5,967 nucleotides of DNA from a virus (Duplodnaviria; Heunggongvirae; Uroviricota; Caudoviricetes), in IMG/VR virus record IMGVR_UViG_2623620506_000002, positions 1-5,967 of that record, one strand, 5' to 3'. The notes beneath the pieces are model-generated. The model was not told where the DNA came from. It searched no databases and saw only the letters and a list, made by a program, of their open reading frames with translations. A program made the translations under genes and the position numbers. Positions 1-5,967 of the stretch are shown here, in pieces. Each line of letters begins with the position of its first letter. The first letter of the stretch is position 1.

Positions 1-758
1 TCATAGTCGGCATACCACATGGGCACGCTGTAGCGGGCGGTTGCCAGTGCCTGCAGAGTGTCGAGATCAATTGCCTGCCCTGCGCTGTCTTTCGGGCGTT
101 CCGTGGTCTTCAGTGCGGACAGCGCCCCGGTTGCCACACGCGCCGGACTGTCAGCAATGGTGACGGCGCTGTTACACAGACGGCCGGCAAGAACGCCCGG
201 TTCAAATCCAAAAATTTCCGGAACCAGCATGATTTGCGGGGCGGCGATGCCTTCCTGTAGCGTGGTCAGTTCAGCAACGTAATCTGCCCAGGTTTTGCTG
301 CCGTTATTGGCGGCAATGGTCAGAATGAACCAGATGCGGCGCTGATATTTATTGATGATGGTCTGACGTAACGCCTGTATGGCGTTGATGTCATCCTTCG
401 TGCTGACCGGTTCGGTGATCACCACGCCTTCAACTGAAACAGTTTCCTGAGCCGCCAGTATGGCGTTCTGCCATACCTGGCAGGCTGGCGTCGCTTCTTT
501 GCCCCTGCCGGCTTCCGGCAGAACGGCAACATAGAAAAAGGCATTCTGTCCGGCATTGGTCAGCGCAGACCGAAGGAAGTTCTTCAGCGGGCTGGCGTTC
601 GTTCCCAGTAGCTCATCCAGATCACTGTTGGCATTAACCGGCAGAACCTTACCTTTGTTGTTTTGTGCATTGCCCACAAACAGCAGCGTATTTTCCACGC
701 CGTCCGGCGAGCTACTGAACGTGTTGTACTGTTCAATTGTGACAGATGGCCAGGTCAT
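1..758 (-). CDS. Putative contractile tail sheath-like structural protein, 5' portion only (252 codons in window; 3' end lies beyond the window start)
   Basis: Minus-strand ATG at 758-756 with AGGAGA Shine-Dalgarno (plus 765-770, complement) 6 nt upstream. Manual translation of the frame shows no stop down to position 3. It starts 19 nt after the stop of the gpS-like gene, consistent with one operon. The N-terminus (MTWPSVTIEQYNTF...LLFVGNAQ...VLPVNANSDLDELLG...AFFYVAVLPE) resembles the N-terminal pattern of myovirus and tailocin sheath proteins as I recall them; the function is not confirmed. Confidence 0.6.
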   Translation of the reverse strand, partial: MTWPSVTIEQYNTFSSSPDGVENTLLFVGNAQNNKGKVLPVNANSDLDELLGTNASPLKNFLRSALTNAGQNAFFYVAVLPEAGRGKEATPACQVWQNAILAAQETVSVEGVVITEPVSTKDDINAIQALRQTIINKYQRRIWFILTIAANNGSKTWADYVAELTTLQEGIAAPQIMLVPEIFGFEPGVLAGRLCNSAVTIADSPARVATGALSALKTTERPKDSAGQAIDLDTLQALATARYSVPMWYADY

Positions 759-777
759 AATTTGTCTCCTGATTTTG

Positions 778-1491
778 TTATCTCGTGCCGCCGTAATGCA
801 GGCTGCGCAGCTGCGCCTCCAGAATGCGGGCAAATTCAGCATTACTGGCTCCCAGAAATGCGCGGGAGGGGATTTTGATTTCCCATACACGTTTTTTCTG
901 CTCGCCTTTCAGAATGCTGATCACCAGTCCGGCCTGCGCCATACTCATGTTTTCCATAATCCATTTCATGGAAGGTTTTCTGCGCCCCCTGCGTCCGTTT
1001 TTTTTGCTGACTGCGCCGACGGGGGCGCGAAAGCCCAGAGAAAGAAGGCGTTCTGCCTGCCGTCGTGTGGCGGGACGAGGGCGCATGGCTTCGCTGTCCC
1101 GGCGTTTTGTGGCGCGGCCTTTGATGGTTGCGCCGTGCTGTTGCACCCACGCGACCGCCCCACCATGAGAGCCGGTGTTGTAATCCCCTTTTTTGAAGAA
1201 AAGGCAGACACTTTTCCCGCTGCCGTCAACCCTGATGGCCAGCAGTTTCGGCAGTCCCAGCAGCATTTTGTTTTTATACCTGCCGCTGGCTTTATCCGGT
1301 CTTTTTCGTGGTGCCCAGGCTGCCCCCTCCGGTGTTCGCTGTGCTTTCACATTGCGTCGTGCAGCCGGTATCAGGCCGTATTTCGCAATGCGAACCAGCA
1401 GCCTTCTGGCCTTTGCCGGCGGAAGTTCTGCCTCTCTGATGGCGCGACGAACCTGCCGGAGTTGTGACTCGTTAATCACGGGGCGCGTCAT
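778..1491 (-). CDS. Phage virion morphogenesis / tail completion protein (P2 gpS / Mu gpG family), atypically long at 237 aa
   Basis: 237-aa ORF with AGGTGA SD about 7 nt upstream of the ATG at 1491. Contains the motifs I associate with this family: TPEGAAWAP near the N-terminal third and IPSRAFLG near the C-terminus. The start overlaps the stop of the upstream gene as ATGA. Confidence 0.8.
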   Translation of the reverse strand: MTRPVINESQLRQVRRAIREAELPPAKARRLLVRIAKYGLIPAARRNVKAQRTPEGAAWAPRKRPDKASGRYKNKMLLGLPKLLAIRVDGSGKSVCLFFKKGDYNTGSHGGAVAWVQQHGATIKGRATKRRDSEAMRPRPATRRQAERLLSLGFRAPVGAVSKKNGRRGRRKPSMKWIMENMSMAQAGLVISILKGEQKKRVWEIKIPSRAFLGASNAEFARILEAQLRSLHYGGTR

Positions 1492-1961
1492 GGCATCACC
1501 TGGCAGTGAAGCTGATGCGCCTGAGCCACCCAGATTTCAGGCTTTTCCAGCTGGTAACGTTTCCCGCCTCTGGGGATGGGGCCGTTTTCGTCCTCAATCA
1601 GGGTGATGGGATCAACCAGCGGCAGACTGATTTCCAGCCATGCCACTTCATTTTCATCATCCACTTCGACGTCAACGGCTGGCGCATCCGGTGCCAGGCG
1701 CTGGCGCAGGTCGCCGCCGTTGTCTGCCAGCCAGGCTTCAACCAGAGAGAACACCAAATCCGGATTCAGTTTGCGGTAGGGCCATGCGTCCCATCGCAGA
1801 AAAGCCGTATATTTTCGAACCTGCGTACATAACTGCCCGTGCCCCAGCGACTTCGTGAACGGAACGAGCGTGATGTCATCCATGTCACTGGTGAACGGAA
1901 TGCGTGCGCGTGCCGGCAGATTGTTTTCAATGAATGCCGTCAGGCTGGCGAGTTGCGTCAT
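1488..1961 (-). CDS. Phage tail completion protein, P2 gpR-like
   Basis: 157-aa ORF with AAGGAA SD upstream of the ATG at 1961; its stop overlaps the start of the gpS-like gene (ATGA at 1488-1491). Size, position immediately upstream of the gpS-like gene and a central LVEAWLADNGGDL segment resembling P2 gpR (from memory) support the call. Confidence 0.65.
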   Translation of the reverse strand: MTQLASLTAFIENNLPARARIPFTSDMDDITLVPFTKSLGHGQLCTQVRKYTAFLRWDAWPYRKLNPDLVFSLVEAWLADNGGDLRQRLAPDAPAVDVEVDDENEVAWLEISLPLVDPITLIEDENGPIPRGGKRYQLEKPEIWVAQAHQLHCQVMP

Positions 1962-5210: not shown

Positions 5211-5404
5211 CTGAATTAACCCGCTGATAAAAATTAAACTGGCGTTATTTAACGGAGAAATAAAAATGTCGTCATCTGATTAATTTCCGGTACTTTCGGA
5301 TATGCGTATATATCCGAAAAATACCGAAAAGCGATATTCGTTTTTAAAAAAGCCTTTGCTGAAAATGCATAAATTAAAATTGCATCAGCAGGTGAGGTTT
5401 ATTT
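5211..5404. promoter_or_regulatory. AT-rich divergent intergenic control region between the scaffold operon (minus) and the terminase ATPase operon (plus), presumed to carry the late promoters
   Basis: 194 bp that is visibly AT-rich against GC-rich flanking coding sequence, bounded by two divergent start codons. Contains a dyad-symmetric element and a candidate -10 hexamer TAAAAT at 5375-5380. No transcription start can be determined from sequence alone. Confidence 0.55.
5294..5319. repeat. Inverted repeat TTTCGGATAT-N6-ATATCCGAAA (perfect 10-bp arms); candidate regulator binding site
   Basis: Read directly from the sequence: 5294-5303 tttcggatat, spacer gcgtat, 5310-5319 atatccgaaa, which is the exact reverse complement of the left arm. 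Related TTCCGG (5285-5290) and CCGAAA (5324-5329) half-sites flank it. Confidence 0.6.
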
Positions 5405-5967
5405 ATGGCGTATTCTGATGAGGTGATTGCTGCTGCAAAATCGCTCTATCTGAAAAGACACACACCAAAAGAAATACAAAAGAAGCTCGGACTGAACAGC
5501 CCGCGAATTGTTTATTACTGGGCGACAAAGTTTGAGTGGTACACACAGCTTAATACTGAAGGCGTGGAAGATGTTATCGCCCGTCGTCTCGCTGTACTGG
5601 CGGAGCGTGATCATAAAACGCCGGAAGAGCACGATGAACTCGATCGCCTGATTGGTCATCACGTCAAACTGATGTCGGTCAGGAACAAGCACACGGAACG
5701 AATGGCCGAGATTGAACGAATGGGAGCGGATATTCCCCAGTCTGGTCGTTATGGAAAAGAAGAACGCGGAGAAAAAGGTGCAGGTAAGAAAGAGCGCCCC
5801 CGCAAAGCTAATGACGTTTCCGGACTGACTGCTGAAAGTTTTGAGCCGTTTACGAAAAAGTTGTTTGCTTATCAGTTGCATCTGCGTGAAAACAAATTCC
5901 GCCGTGTACGCAACCTGCTTAAATCCCGCCAGATTGGGGCGACGTATTACTTCGCGTTTGAGGCATT
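5405..5967 (+). CDS. Phage terminase ATPase (large) subunit, P2 gpP-like, N-terminal 187 codons (continues beyond window end)
   Basis: ATG at 5405 with GAGG SD about 9 nt upstream. Manual translation (MAYSDEVIAAAKSLYLKRHTPKEIQKKLGL...FRRVRNLLKSRQIGATYYFAFEA) shows no stop to the window end. The SRQIGATYYFA segment matches the conserved N-terminal region of P2-type terminase ATPase subunits as recalled, and the divergent placement relative to the scaffold gene is the P2 arrangement. It is absent from the ORF track only because it has no stop in the window. Confidence 0.85.
   Translation, partial: MAYSDEVIAAAKSLYLKRHTPKEIQKKLGLNSPRIVYYWATKFEWYTQLNTEGVEDVIARRLAVLAERDHKTPEEHDELDRLIGHHVKLMSVRNKHTERMAEIERMGADIPQSGRYGKEERGEKGAGKKERPRKANDVSGLTAESFEPFTKKLFAYQLHLRENKFRRVRNLLKSRQIGATYYFAFEA

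What the first reader, a model, noticed from the sequence alone, without database searches (positions are those of the whole stretch)
958..1131. gpS-like virion morphogenesis protein carries an Arg/Lys-rich insert of about 60-70 residues containing an A8 homopolymer
Family members I know are about 150 aa; this ORF is 237 aa. The extra length lies mainly between the conserved HQ/HG block (around residue 119) and the IPSRAFLG motif (around residue 207): the segment ATIKGRATKRRDSEAMRPRPATRRQAERLLSLGFRAPVGAVSKKNGRRGRRKPSMKW is highly basic. The coding strand contains an A8 tract (plus-strand T8 at 998-1005, encoding KK-N), a potential slipped-strand or frameshift site. A basic insert could add nucleic-acid binding or an extra interaction surface. 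Several overlapping ORFs in other frames here reflect the same GC- and Arg-codon-rich composition.
Basis: partly seen in the sequence, partly recalled or inferred. Interest (0 to 1): 0.45.

Follow-up and report, generated by a model that had tools for sequence, protein, structure and literature searches.

The report
HP1-type tail completion protein insert
The gene encodes the tail completion protein of an HP1/P2-like E. coli prophage, and its extra basic segment is a conserved, folded subdomain shared by the whole HP1-type branch of the family, while the A8 run in it is incidental.

Summary
ORF 778..1491 (-) is 237 aa, is very basic, and has a coding-strand A8 at 998-1005.

- **The insert is real.** Compared with P2 gpS (150 aa) and Mu gpG (156 aa) there is an extra segment of about 83 residues (121-203, window 883-1131) between the HQxG block and the IPxRxFLG motif.
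- **It is not peculiar to this gene.** Haemophilus HP1 orf22 and six other Peduoviridae genera have it in the same gene order. So do about 130 of the best 150 cluster representatives, which are 205-263 aa.
- **It is folded, not a disordered loop.** It carries conserved motifs (PATrrQAxxLxxLGF and WIxxNMsxaQAGLvI). AlphaFold2 predicts helix, basic beta-hairpin, helix, helix. Frame 0 is under purifying selection.
- **The A8 is chance.** About 0.72 are expected per window. In 24 close relatives it is A8 in 2, A7 in 18 and interrupted in 4, and every ORF is intact. No alternative frame is conserved.

By topological analogy with phage 80alpha gp51, which caps the DNA end inside the neck, the insert sits on the DNA-facing apex. 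Its likely role is extra contact with the genome end or neck channel, and this is inferred. The finding is ordinary for this lineage and modestly interesting.

The parts
778..1491 (-). Gene for the tail completion protein (TCP; gpS / Mu G / Neck1 family), HP1-type long form, 237 aa
   Evidence: ORF. PF05069 scores 35.1 bits against a cutoff of 24.3. phrog_26 'tail completion or Neck1 protein', E = 1.9e-24, with residues 6-231 mapping onto only 145 profile positions. RefSeq annotates the same CDS in E. coli prophages.
883..1131 (-). Inserted subdomain, residues 121-203. Absent from P2 gpS and Mu gpG, present in all HP1-type TCPs
   Evidence: Alignment A1. Net charge is +10 to +20 in all 44 long-form members. 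AF2 on the insert alone gives pLDDT 79-93 over residues 141-195. Variable sites by codon position are 14/8/38.
1030..1074 (-). First conserved motif and helix of the insert, PATRRQAERLLSLGF (residues 140-154)
   Evidence: Q145, A146 and L149 are invariant and L152 and G153 nearly invariant in A2. Helix 143-151 is predicted with pLDDT about 90.
970..1029 (-). Variable-length basic beta-hairpin or linker, RAPVGAVSKKNGRRGRRKPS (residues 155-174); 8 K+R, 0 D+E
   Evidence: Strands at 156-158 and 169-171 in the insert-only model. Length varies between lineages but it is always basic. Variable sites by codon position are 2/3/15.
998..1005 (-). A8 homopolymer (T8 on the + strand) encoding K163-K164-N165 at the hairpin tip. 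Incidental.
   Evidence: Relatives have A8 in 2, A7 in 18, AAAAAGA in 3 and AAGAAAA in 1, all with intact ORFs. Chance expectation is 0.72 per window.
904..969 (-). Second conserved motif and helix pair of the insert, MKWIMENMSMAQAGLVISILKG (residues 175-196)
   Evidence: I178, A187 and L194 are invariant and I191 nearly invariant. Helices 175-181 and 184-195 have pLDDT 86-92. Only 6 variable nucleotide sites among close relatives.
1132..1143 (-). Family core motif Q-Q-H-G (residues 117-120; HQxG in P2 and Mu) at the end of the short helix, just before the insert
   Evidence: G120 is invariant across long and short forms.
850..873 (-). Family core motif IPSRAFLG (residues 207-214), following the return strand after the insert
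   Evidence: R210 is invariant and G214 nearly invariant, including in P2 gpS and Mu G.
1488..1961 (-). Upstream gene: gpR-like tail terminator (157 aa). Its stop overlaps the TCP start (ATGA at 1488-1491).
   Evidence: PF06891 P2_Phage_GpR, E = 8e-16. phrog_65 tail terminator. Sequence.
1..758 (-). Downstream gene: N-terminal part of the HP1-type tail sheath (DUF2586). It starts 20 bases after the TCP stop.
   Evidence: phrog_907 tail sheath, E = 2.4e-84. RefSeq annotation. Same order as HP1 orf22-orf23.

Best explanation
[quoted passage not shown] The prophage combines P2-type head genes with an HP1-type tail module.

**The insert.** The 'insert' is the hallmark of the whole HP1-type branch of the gpS / Mu G family. 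It is an autonomous, strongly basic subdomain of about 83 residues. It consists of a helix (PATRRQAxxLxxLGF), a basic beta-hairpin of variable length, and a helix pair (WIxxNMsxaQAGLvIxxL). It is spliced into the loop between the short core helix ending in HQxG and the strand carrying IPxRxFLG.

**Likely mechanism (inferred).** In the one TCP seen in a virion, phage 80alpha gp51, a monomer sits in the neck lumen. The short helix and following loop cap the end of the packaged DNA, and a nearby basic surface leans on the adaptor ring. The opposite end holds the tape-measure N-termini. By topological equivalence, the HP1-type insert sits on that DNA- and head-facing apex. It most likely provides extra electrostatic contact with the genome end and/or the negatively charged neck channel, helping to plug and position the DNA after head-tail joining.

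**The A8.** The tract merely encodes Lys-Lys-Asn at the hairpin tip. It arose from a C-to-A (Thr-to-Asn) change in an A7 and has no recoding role.

**Shown versus inferred.** Shown here: family membership, delimitation of the insert, its conservation, selection, predicted fold, and the non-conservation of the A8 (confidence about 0.95). Inferred: the location at the apex and the partner (confidence about 0.4).
For: **Identity**
- PF05069 above its cutoff.
- phrog_26, with about 80 residues unaligned.
- Synteny of gpL-like, gpR-like, TCP and sheath identical to HP1 orf20-23 and to SI7, ESSI-2, phiO18P, phi3, VPUSM8 and C5a.

**Insert delimited** against P2 gpS and Mu G.

**Subfamily-wide**
- 70 phage records.
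- 351 representatives at E <= 1e-3; about 130 of the best 150 are 205-263 aa.
- 116 profile hits, mostly 213-251 aa.
- 43 of 44 long forms hit PF05069.

**Conserved motifs and charge**.

**Predicted fold**: full model pLDDT 80 with confident insert helices. The insert alone folds the same way, with pLDDT 79-93.

**Selection**: third-position excess in frame 0 across the insert, 14/8/38.

**A8 incidental**.

**Mechanistic analogy**
- In the 80alpha neck structure, TCP gp51 is a lumenal monomer. Y78 and F81 stack on the last base pair, R87 binds the 3' phosphate, a basic surface faces the DNA and adaptor, and lambda gpZ has an extra domain at the apex (PMC11661146; PDB 9mu2_P).
- Predicted folds of P2 gpS and Mu G superimpose on other TCPs (PMC11784142).
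- The order of secondary-structure elements in my model (bent long helix, beta-hairpin, short helix, Gly, [insert], C-terminal helix) matches the published description of gp51.
Against: - No sequence-level link between the gp51 family and this family could be shown. hhalign probability is about 0.1%, so the placement at the DNA-facing apex rests on topology and on published fold comparisons only.
- Foldseek found no solved structure resembling either the whole model or the insert, so no DNA-binding fold is demonstrated.
- There are no consistent Pfam hits for the insert. HTH_11 appears in 2 of 28 members at E = 0.035, which is chance level.
- The core of the protein is itself very basic, so charge alone does not single out the insert.
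- The insert co-varies with the tail-module type rather than with the shared P2-type head and adaptor. That fits a tail-side partner at least as well.
- No TCP has yet been located in any myophage. Mu gpG was not seen in the Mu virion structure.
Confidence: 0.55

Rival explanations
1. The insert is a tail-side adaptor. It binds a partner specific to the HP1-type tail module (tape-measure N-termini, tube lumen or gpR-like terminator), rather than the DNA end or adaptor ring.
For: - The long form occurs in 8 of 8 examined genomes with an HP1-type sheath immediately downstream.
- P2-type phages have homologous heads and a different tail gene arrangement, and they carry the short form.
- Tail tube lumens are negatively charged (Mu, PMC11915804), which would suit a basic module.
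- In 80alpha the TCP binds the tape measure directly.
Against: - In 80alpha the tape measure is bound by the TCP beta-hairpin and the two long helices, on a negatively charged face. That is the opposite end from the loop where this insert is spliced.
- The tape measure is itself basic there.
- There is no direct evidence either way for HP1-type phages.
Confidence: 0.3
2. The segment is a tolerated, largely passive basic spacer with no specific partner. It would be lineage baggage in an insertion-tolerant loop.
For: - The TCP family tolerates insertions in several loops. P88-like phages have an unrelated insertion of about 60 aa at another site, and lambda gpZ has an apex domain.
- The hairpin part varies in length and sequence.
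- Residues 121-140 have lower pLDDT and weaker codon-position bias, 9/4/9.
Against: - Two motifs are conserved down to about 25-30% overall identity across Enterobacteria, Vibrio, Pseudoalteromonas, Pasteurellaceae and Pseudomonas.
- The helices are confidently predicted.
- Purifying selection is strong in the helices and the hairpin.
- The positive charge is always retained.
Confidence: 0.1
3. The A8 tract is a functional recoding or phase-variation site. It would act through programmed -1/+1 frameshifting or slipped-strand switching, producing a truncated or alternative C-terminus.
For: - In this window the tract forms an in-frame A_AAA_AAC heptamer, read directly from the sequence.
- One database variant (P0018) changes frame at the tract.
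Against: - The heptamer and the A8 are absent from 22 of 24 close relatives, which have A7 or G-interrupted tracts, and all ORFs are intact.
- More distant homologues have different sequence here.
- The slipped products (174 aa, or 216-218 aa) lack the invariant R210/G214 motif and the C-terminal helix.
- Codon-position bias downstream supports frame 0 only, 9/3/24.
- The downstream RNA fold has z = -0.97.
- An A8 is expected by chance 0.72 times per window.
- P0018 carries at least three frameshifts and looks like an error-ridden or decayed copy.
Confidence: 0.02

Closest known systems
Haemophilus phage HP1 orf22, and homologues in K139/VPUSM8, phiO18P, phi3, ESSI-2, SI7 and C5a (Peduoviridae with an HP1-type tail module)
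   Same: - Same length class (218-235 aa).
- Same insertion with the same two motifs and a basic hairpin.
- Same gene order: adaptor, terminator, TCP, sheath.
   Different: Only 27-46% identical overall. The hairpin length differs and the N-terminal loop is shorter. None of them has been characterised functionally or structurally as far as I could find.
P2 gpS and Mu gpG (Pfam PF05069 Phage_tail_S; phrog_26)
   Same: - Same family.
- N-terminal helices.
- QxxPDGxxW, HQxG and PxRxFLG motifs and a C-terminal helix.
- Position next to the gpR-type terminator, as in P2.
   Different: P2 and Mu have about 13-20 residues where this protein has about 83-90. Mu G is acidic (pI 5.6), whereas this protein has pI 11.8. 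TIGR01635 scores below its cutoff here.
Staphylococcus phage 80alpha gp51 (HK97 gp10-like TCP; PDB 9mu2 chain P)
   Same: Same functional class. Same order of secondary-structure elements: bent long helix, beta-hairpin, short helix, loop, C-terminal helix. It is the only TCP located in a virion: a monomer in the neck lumen that caps the DNA end and holds the tape measure.
   Different: No detectable sequence homology. It is 115 aa and acidic overall, comes from a siphophage with headful packaging, and has no inserted subdomain.
Phage lambda gpZ (PF06763)
   Same: TCP of a cos phage, reported to carry an extra domain at the apex. It also contains an Arg/Lys run, SRRRRRKKGQRSS. It has been proposed to bind a DNA end (as cited).
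   Different: A different Pfam family. Its extra domain is described as beta, not helical. No alignable similarity to this insert was tested or found.

Membership tests
gpS / Mu G tail completion proteins (Pfam PF05069, phrog_26) | Profile match above the curated threshold | tested here: met
   PF05069 scores 35.1 bits against a cutoff of 24.3, but only over residues 11-87. phrog_26 E = 1.9e-24 over residues 6-231. 43 of 44 long-form relatives match PF05069.
gpS / Mu G tail completion proteins (NCBIfam TIGR01635 equivalog) | Score above the equivalog cutoff | tested here: not met
   25.5 bits against a cutoff of 37.65. The insert splits the domain. This explains why RefSeq names some copies 'hypothetical protein'.
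gpS / Mu G tail completion proteins | Conserved core motifs (QxxPDG, HQxG, PxRxFLG) in the same order | tested here: met
   Q51, P54, G56, G120 and R210 are invariant or nearly so in an alignment that includes P2 gpS and Mu G.
gpS / Mu G tail completion proteins | Gene position in the neck/tail cluster next to the tail terminator | tested here: met
   The gpR-like gene at 1488-1961 overlaps the TCP start, and the sheath gene follows. Same as P2 R-S and HP1 orf21-22.
gpS / Mu G tail completion proteins | TCP fold: two long helices plus a small beta-sheet | tested here: inconclusive
   The AF2 secondary-structure order fits. The best BFVD matches are virion morphogenesis / TCP models, but with TM only 0.38-0.54. 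No PDB match was found, and 9mu2_P was not retrieved.
gpS / Mu G tail completion proteins | Required for tail completion or head-tail joining; present in the virion | not testable with these tools
   Genetic and biochemical property. Known for P2 and Mu only from the literature summarised in PMC11784142.
HP1-type long TCP subfamily | Insertion of about 76-95 aa between HQxG and PxRxFLG, carrying the PATrxQAxxLxxLG and WIxxNMxxxQAGLxI motifs | tested here: met
   Alignments A1-A4.
HP1-type long TCP subfamily | Immediately followed by the HP1-type sheath (DUF2586 / phrog_907) | tested here: met
   The window and 7 phage genera.
Programmed ribosomal frameshift site | Slippery sequence conserved among relatives | tested here: not met
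   The A_AAA_AAC heptamer is present only with the A8, which is 2 of the 24 sequences compared (window included).
Programmed ribosomal frameshift site | Conserved alternative-frame product and a downstream stimulatory structure | tested here: not met
   Slipped products are truncated and lack core motifs. Only frame 0 shows third-position bias. Downstream RNA z = -0.97.
Phase-variable (contingency) homopolymer | Length polymorphism of the tract that switches the ORF on and off between strains | tested here: not met
   0 of 24 loci have an indel at the tract; variation is by substitution. Read-level data are not available.
Known DNA-binding folds (winged helix / HTH and similar) | Significant structural or profile similarity of the insert | tested here: not met
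   Foldseek against the PDB gives all E > 1. The PDB profile search found nothing. Pfam shows only scattered chance-level hits.

The most novel reading that the evidence does not exclude
The insert is a previously undescribed autonomous domain (helix, basic hairpin, helix-helix) with no relative among solved structures. In this reading it gives HP1-type myophages a dedicated DNA-end-binding, genome-plugging module on their lumenal tail completion protein. That would make it the first TCP with a separable DNA-binding domain, and a handle for locating TCPs in contractile-tailed phages.
Probability: 0.25. Interest if true: 0.5.

Novelty: new variant of a known kind. Interest (0 to 1): 0.27.

Why it matters
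Tail completion proteins are nearly universal in long-tailed phages. Only one has so far been located in a virion (80alpha, 2024-25), and none in a myophage.

Two practical points follow from recognising that the HP1-type branch carries a conserved, separately folding, highly basic subdomain at the apex that caps DNA in 80alpha.
- It gives structural groups a larger, distinctive mass to look for in asymmetric neck reconstructions.
- It gives a clean deletion or swap experiment on how the genome end is held and released.

There is also an annotation consequence. The insert breaks the Pfam and TIGRFAM models, so many copies are labelled 'hypothetical'.

For the genome scan itself the message is deflationary. 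The extra length is normal for this lineage, and the A8 is not a recoding or phase-variation signal.

Tried and rejected
- **Sequence link to 80alpha gp51.** hhalign of the long-form profile (A3), and of the mixed profile (A1), against gp51 alone and against a 23-member gp51 alignment gave no signal, with probability about 0.1%. The mapping to gp51 therefore stays topological.
- **Structure search, whole model.** Foldseek against the PDB gave only noise, E > 1.
- **Structure search, insert alone.** Foldseek against the PDB also gave only noise.
- **PDB sequence and profile searches** with A3 and A4 found nothing.
- **Pfam and PHROG scans of the insert alone** found nothing consistent.
- **Stand-alone copies of the insert.** The short hits in the representative search (P0110, P0121, P0145 and others) are C-terminal fragments of ordinary long TCPs, not independent domains.
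- **Genome-contig scan** returned only one locus, from E. albertii.
- **Literature.** I found no paper on HP1 or K139 orf22, and nothing useful under the Pfam name.
- **Frameshift and phase-variation reading of the A8.** Considered and rejected.
- **Mis-fused or mis-called ORF.** Rejected, because the same 237-aa CDS is intact in all 23 related DNA loci I read (two complete E. coli genomes, one E. albertii contig and 20 viral contigs); the region as a whole matches 42 complete E. coli genomes.

Full report
**1. Observation**

The window's minus strand carries an ORF at 778..1491 of 237 aa. It has 19 K+R against 3 D+E and a pI of about 12. The coding strand has A8 at 998-1005, spanning codons K163-K164-N165. 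The QQHG block ends at G120, and IPSRAFLG is residues 207-214. All of this is as described.

One A8 in a 5967-base window is not unusual. Dinucleotide-preserving shuffles give 0.72 on average, and 86 of 200 shuffles have at least one. The protein as a whole is extremely basic, at pI 11.8. The core outside the insert has 31 K+R against 10 D+E.

**2. Context**

The window matches 42 complete E. coli genomes at 90-98% identity, always chromosomal, as part of a prophage. The genes in the window are:
- a GPO scaffold protein, a P2-family major capsid protein, the gpM small terminase and a gpL-like head completion protein;
- a gpR-like tail terminator (1488-1961);
- the ORF in question;
- the start of a DUF2586 / phrog_907 tail sheath.

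RefSeq annotation of two such prophages shows the full element. It has a P2-type head and replication module and an HP1-type tail module: sheath, tube, holin, endolysin, chaperones, tape measure and baseplate. The order adaptor, terminator, this gene, sheath is exactly that of Haemophilus phage HP1 orf20-21-22-23. Salmonella SI7, Cronobacter ESSI-2, Aeromonas phiO18P, Pseudomonas phi3, Vibrio VPUSM8 (K139-like) and Pseudoalteromonas C5a have the same order. Together these are seven Peduoviridae genera. The stop of the gpR-like gene overlaps the start of this gene (ATGA at 1488-1491), which suggests coupled translation.

**3. Family and delimitation of the insert**

- Pfam PF05069 (Phage_tail_S) matches above its threshold, but only over residues 11-87.
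- The NCBIfam equivalog TIGR01635 scores below its cutoff.
- PHROG 26 ('tail completion or Neck1 protein') matches residues 6-231 onto only 145 profile positions.
- An alignment with P2 gpS (150 aa) and Mu gpG (156 aa) shows why. All HP1-type proteins carry about 76-95 extra residues between the invariant Gly of HQxG (G120 here) and the strand leading into PxRxFLG (R210 invariant).
- In this protein the insert is residues about 121-203, window 883-1131.

**4. Is it peculiar to this gene? No.**

- The close cluster P0001 (97% identical) holds 689 sequences. Full-length relatives of 228-251 aa reach down to 39% identity.
- tblastn finds the long form in 70 phage records from Vibrio, Escherichia, Pseudomonas, Pseudoalteromonas, Salmonella, Pasteurella, Aeromonas, Haemophilus, Cronobacter and Yersinia phages.
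- An exhaustive HMMER scan of 1.84 billion cluster representatives gives 351 hits at E <= 1e-3. About 130 of the best 150 are 205-263 aa and align end to end. The shorter ones are fragments.
- A profile search adds 116 members, mostly 213-251 aa.
- For comparison, the canonical short P2-type gpS occurs in 420 phage records.

The long form is therefore the standard version in one large branch of the family, known as a sequence since HP1 was sequenced. I found no paper that discusses it.

**5. Anatomy of the insert**

Across 13 to 44 diverse members the insert contains two conserved blocks:
- P-A-T-r-x-Q-A-x-x-L-x-x-L-G-F, with Q145, A146 and L149 invariant and L152 and G153 nearly so;
- W-I-x-x-N-M-x-x-x-Q-A-G-L-x-I-x-x-L, with I178, A187 and L194 invariant.

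Between them lies a segment of variable length that is always rich in Arg and Lys. The net charge of the insert is +10 to +20 in all 44 sequences examined.

AlphaFold2 with a 44-sequence alignment gives mean pLDDT 80. It predicts helices at 143-151, 175-181 and 184-195 with pLDDT about 86-91, flanked by strands 121-126 and 202-207. The insert predicted alone (28 sequences) adopts the same elements with pLDDT 79-93 over residues 141-195. In that model the basic segment forms a beta-hairpin, with strands at 156-158 and 169-171.

The insert therefore looks like a small autonomous subdomain (helix, basic hairpin, helix-helix), not a disordered loop. Only residues about 121-140 are poorly defined. 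The A8 encodes the tip of the hairpin.

**6. Selection**

Among 20 distinct DNA sequences from 24 closely related loci, variable sites by codon position in frame 0 are as follows.

| Region | Position 1 | Position 2 | Position 3 |
|---|---|---|---|
| Whole gene | 43 | 31 | 119 |
| Insert | 14 | 8 | 38 |
| Basic hairpin | 2 | 3 | 15 |
| Downstream of the tract | 9 | 3 | 24 |

The insert is under purifying selection in the annotated frame, and no second frame is constrained.

**7. The A8 tract**

In the 24 sequences compared (the window plus 23 related loci) the tract reads as follows:
- AAAAAAAAC in 2 (the window type, Asn165);
- AAAAAAACC in 18 (Thr);
- AAAAAGACC in 3;
- AAGAAAACA in 1.

Every ORF is intact at 237 aa. 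The window's A8 is thus a C-to-A substitution extending an A7, and synonymous G interruptions are tolerated.

A one-base slip would give products of 174 aa or 216-218 aa. Both lack the invariant R210/G214 motif and the C-terminal helix. The window's in-frame A_AAA_AAC heptamer is absent from the A7 relatives. The 88 nt downstream fold no better than shuffles, z = -0.97.

Four frameshifted database proteins exist (P0012, P0013, P0015, P0018). Three of them shift elsewhere. The one that shifts at the tract has at least three frameshifts, and so looks like sequencing error or decay.

Programmed frameshifting and phase variation are therefore rejected.

**8. What the insert probably does**

Until late 2024 the location of TCPs was unknown. 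P2 gpS and Mu gpG are predicted to share the fold of lambda gpZ, SPP1 gp16.1 and HK97 gp10. Loss of gpS blocks head-tail joining, whereas loss of Mu G or lambda Z gives poorly infectious virions (PMC11784142).

The 80alpha/SaPI1 neck structure then showed the following (PMC11661146; deposited as 9mu2_P):
- One gp51 monomer sits inside the neck lumen.
- A bent N-terminal helix, a beta-hairpin, a short helix and a C-terminal helix make up the fold.
- Y78 and F81 in the short helix region stack on the last base pair, and R87 just after it binds the 3' phosphate.
- A basic surface at the base of this loop leans on the adaptor ring.
- The hairpin and long helices grip the three tape-measure N-termini.
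- Lambda gpZ is noted to have an extra domain 'at its apex'.

My model has the same order of elements. The insert is spliced in directly after the short helix and its terminal Gly, which is the equivalent of gp51's G85-T86-R87.

I therefore infer that the HP1-type insert decorates the DNA- and head-facing apex of a lumenal plug. It would add positive surface for the genome end and/or the negatively charged neck channel.

This inference has clear limits:
- The gp51 and gpS families are not linked by sequence in my hands.
- No solved structure resembles the insert, and there is no Pfam domain for it.
- No TCP has been seen in a myophage. Mu gpG is not in the Mu virion model.
- The insert co-varies with tail type rather than head type, which keeps a tail-side partner (tape measure, tube lumen or terminator) as a serious rival.

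**9. Comparison and novelty**

The gene is a bona fide member of the gpS / Mu G family and of its HP1-type long subfamily. It is not new as a sequence, since RefSeq already holds near-identical proteins.

What appears undescribed is the recognition of the insertion as a conserved, separately folding basic subdomain at a functionally suggestive position. I rate it a new variant of a known kind, at subfamily level rather than for this locus, and of modest interest.

The length is not unusual for the lineage, and the A8 is not a slippery site.

**10. Side observations**

- The TCP family tolerates insertions at more than one loop. P88-like Xuanwuvirus proteins (211 aa) have an unrelated insertion of about 60 aa after the PRRRR motif.
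- A 244-aa Burkholderia phiX216 TCP appears among the structural neighbours.
- Lambda gpZ has its own Arg/Lys run.
- The reference K139 Orf22 (166 aa) is truncated by a frameshift inside the insert, compared with the 219-aa VPUSM8 protein.

Noticed in passing
L035:2489-3124 (Escherichia virus P88_4B11, Xuanwuvirus): This P2-type gpS homologue is 211 aa because of a different, unrelated insertion of about 60 aa in another loop (after the PRRRR motif that follows QxxPDG). The TCP scaffold therefore accepts insertions at more than one site.
   Followed up: partly
P0256 (Bacteriophage K139 Orf22, 166 aa) versus L010:1405-2064 (VPUSM8, 219 aa): The reference K139 protein diverges after PATREQAK into an unrelated tail and stops early. 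This looks like a frameshift, either a sequencing error or a real one, inside the insert. Relatives are full length.
   Followed up: partly
Only P0018, which has at least three shifts, changes frame at the A tract.
   Followed up: partly
window 778-1491, and RefSeq proteins WP_063082809.1 and WP_107183120.1 (L002, L001): Near-identical copies are named either 'hypothetical protein' or 'phage virion morphogenesis protein'. The insert pushes TIGR01635 below its cutoff (25.5 against 37.65), and HP1 orf22 hits no Pfam family at all.
   Followed up: yes
window 1488-1491: The stop codon of the gpR-like terminator gene overlaps the ATG of the TCP gene (ATGA), suggesting translational coupling of the two neck/tail completion proteins.
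   Followed up: no
window 5399-5881 (-): A 160-aa ORF with no family match lies antisense to the start of the large terminase gene, which begins near 5405 on the + strand in the annotated relatives. It is most likely spurious.
   Followed up: partly
H8, NZ_CM129038.1 4357384-4366063: One E. coli genome has an IS66-family element (tnpC) inserted within the region homologous to the window, splitting the match into two pieces.
   Followed up: no
L001:21284-22562: The same prophage carries ParM and a plasmid partitioning/stability gene next to the P2-type replication endonuclease. This hints that the element, or an ancestor, can be maintained as a plasmid.
   Followed up: no
L036:78-656 (lambda gpZ): Lambda's TCP contains a run SRRRRRKKGQRSSLKGGG, reminiscent of the basic hairpin here. 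Basic loops may be a recurrent feature of TCPs in cos phages.
   Followed up: no
BFVD K4NZQ8 (Burkholderia phage phiX216 tail completion protein, 244 aa): Another long TCP from a P2-like phage is the third-best structural neighbour (E = 3e-4). It was not found by tblastn with the window protein, so it may carry an independent insertion.
   Followed up: no
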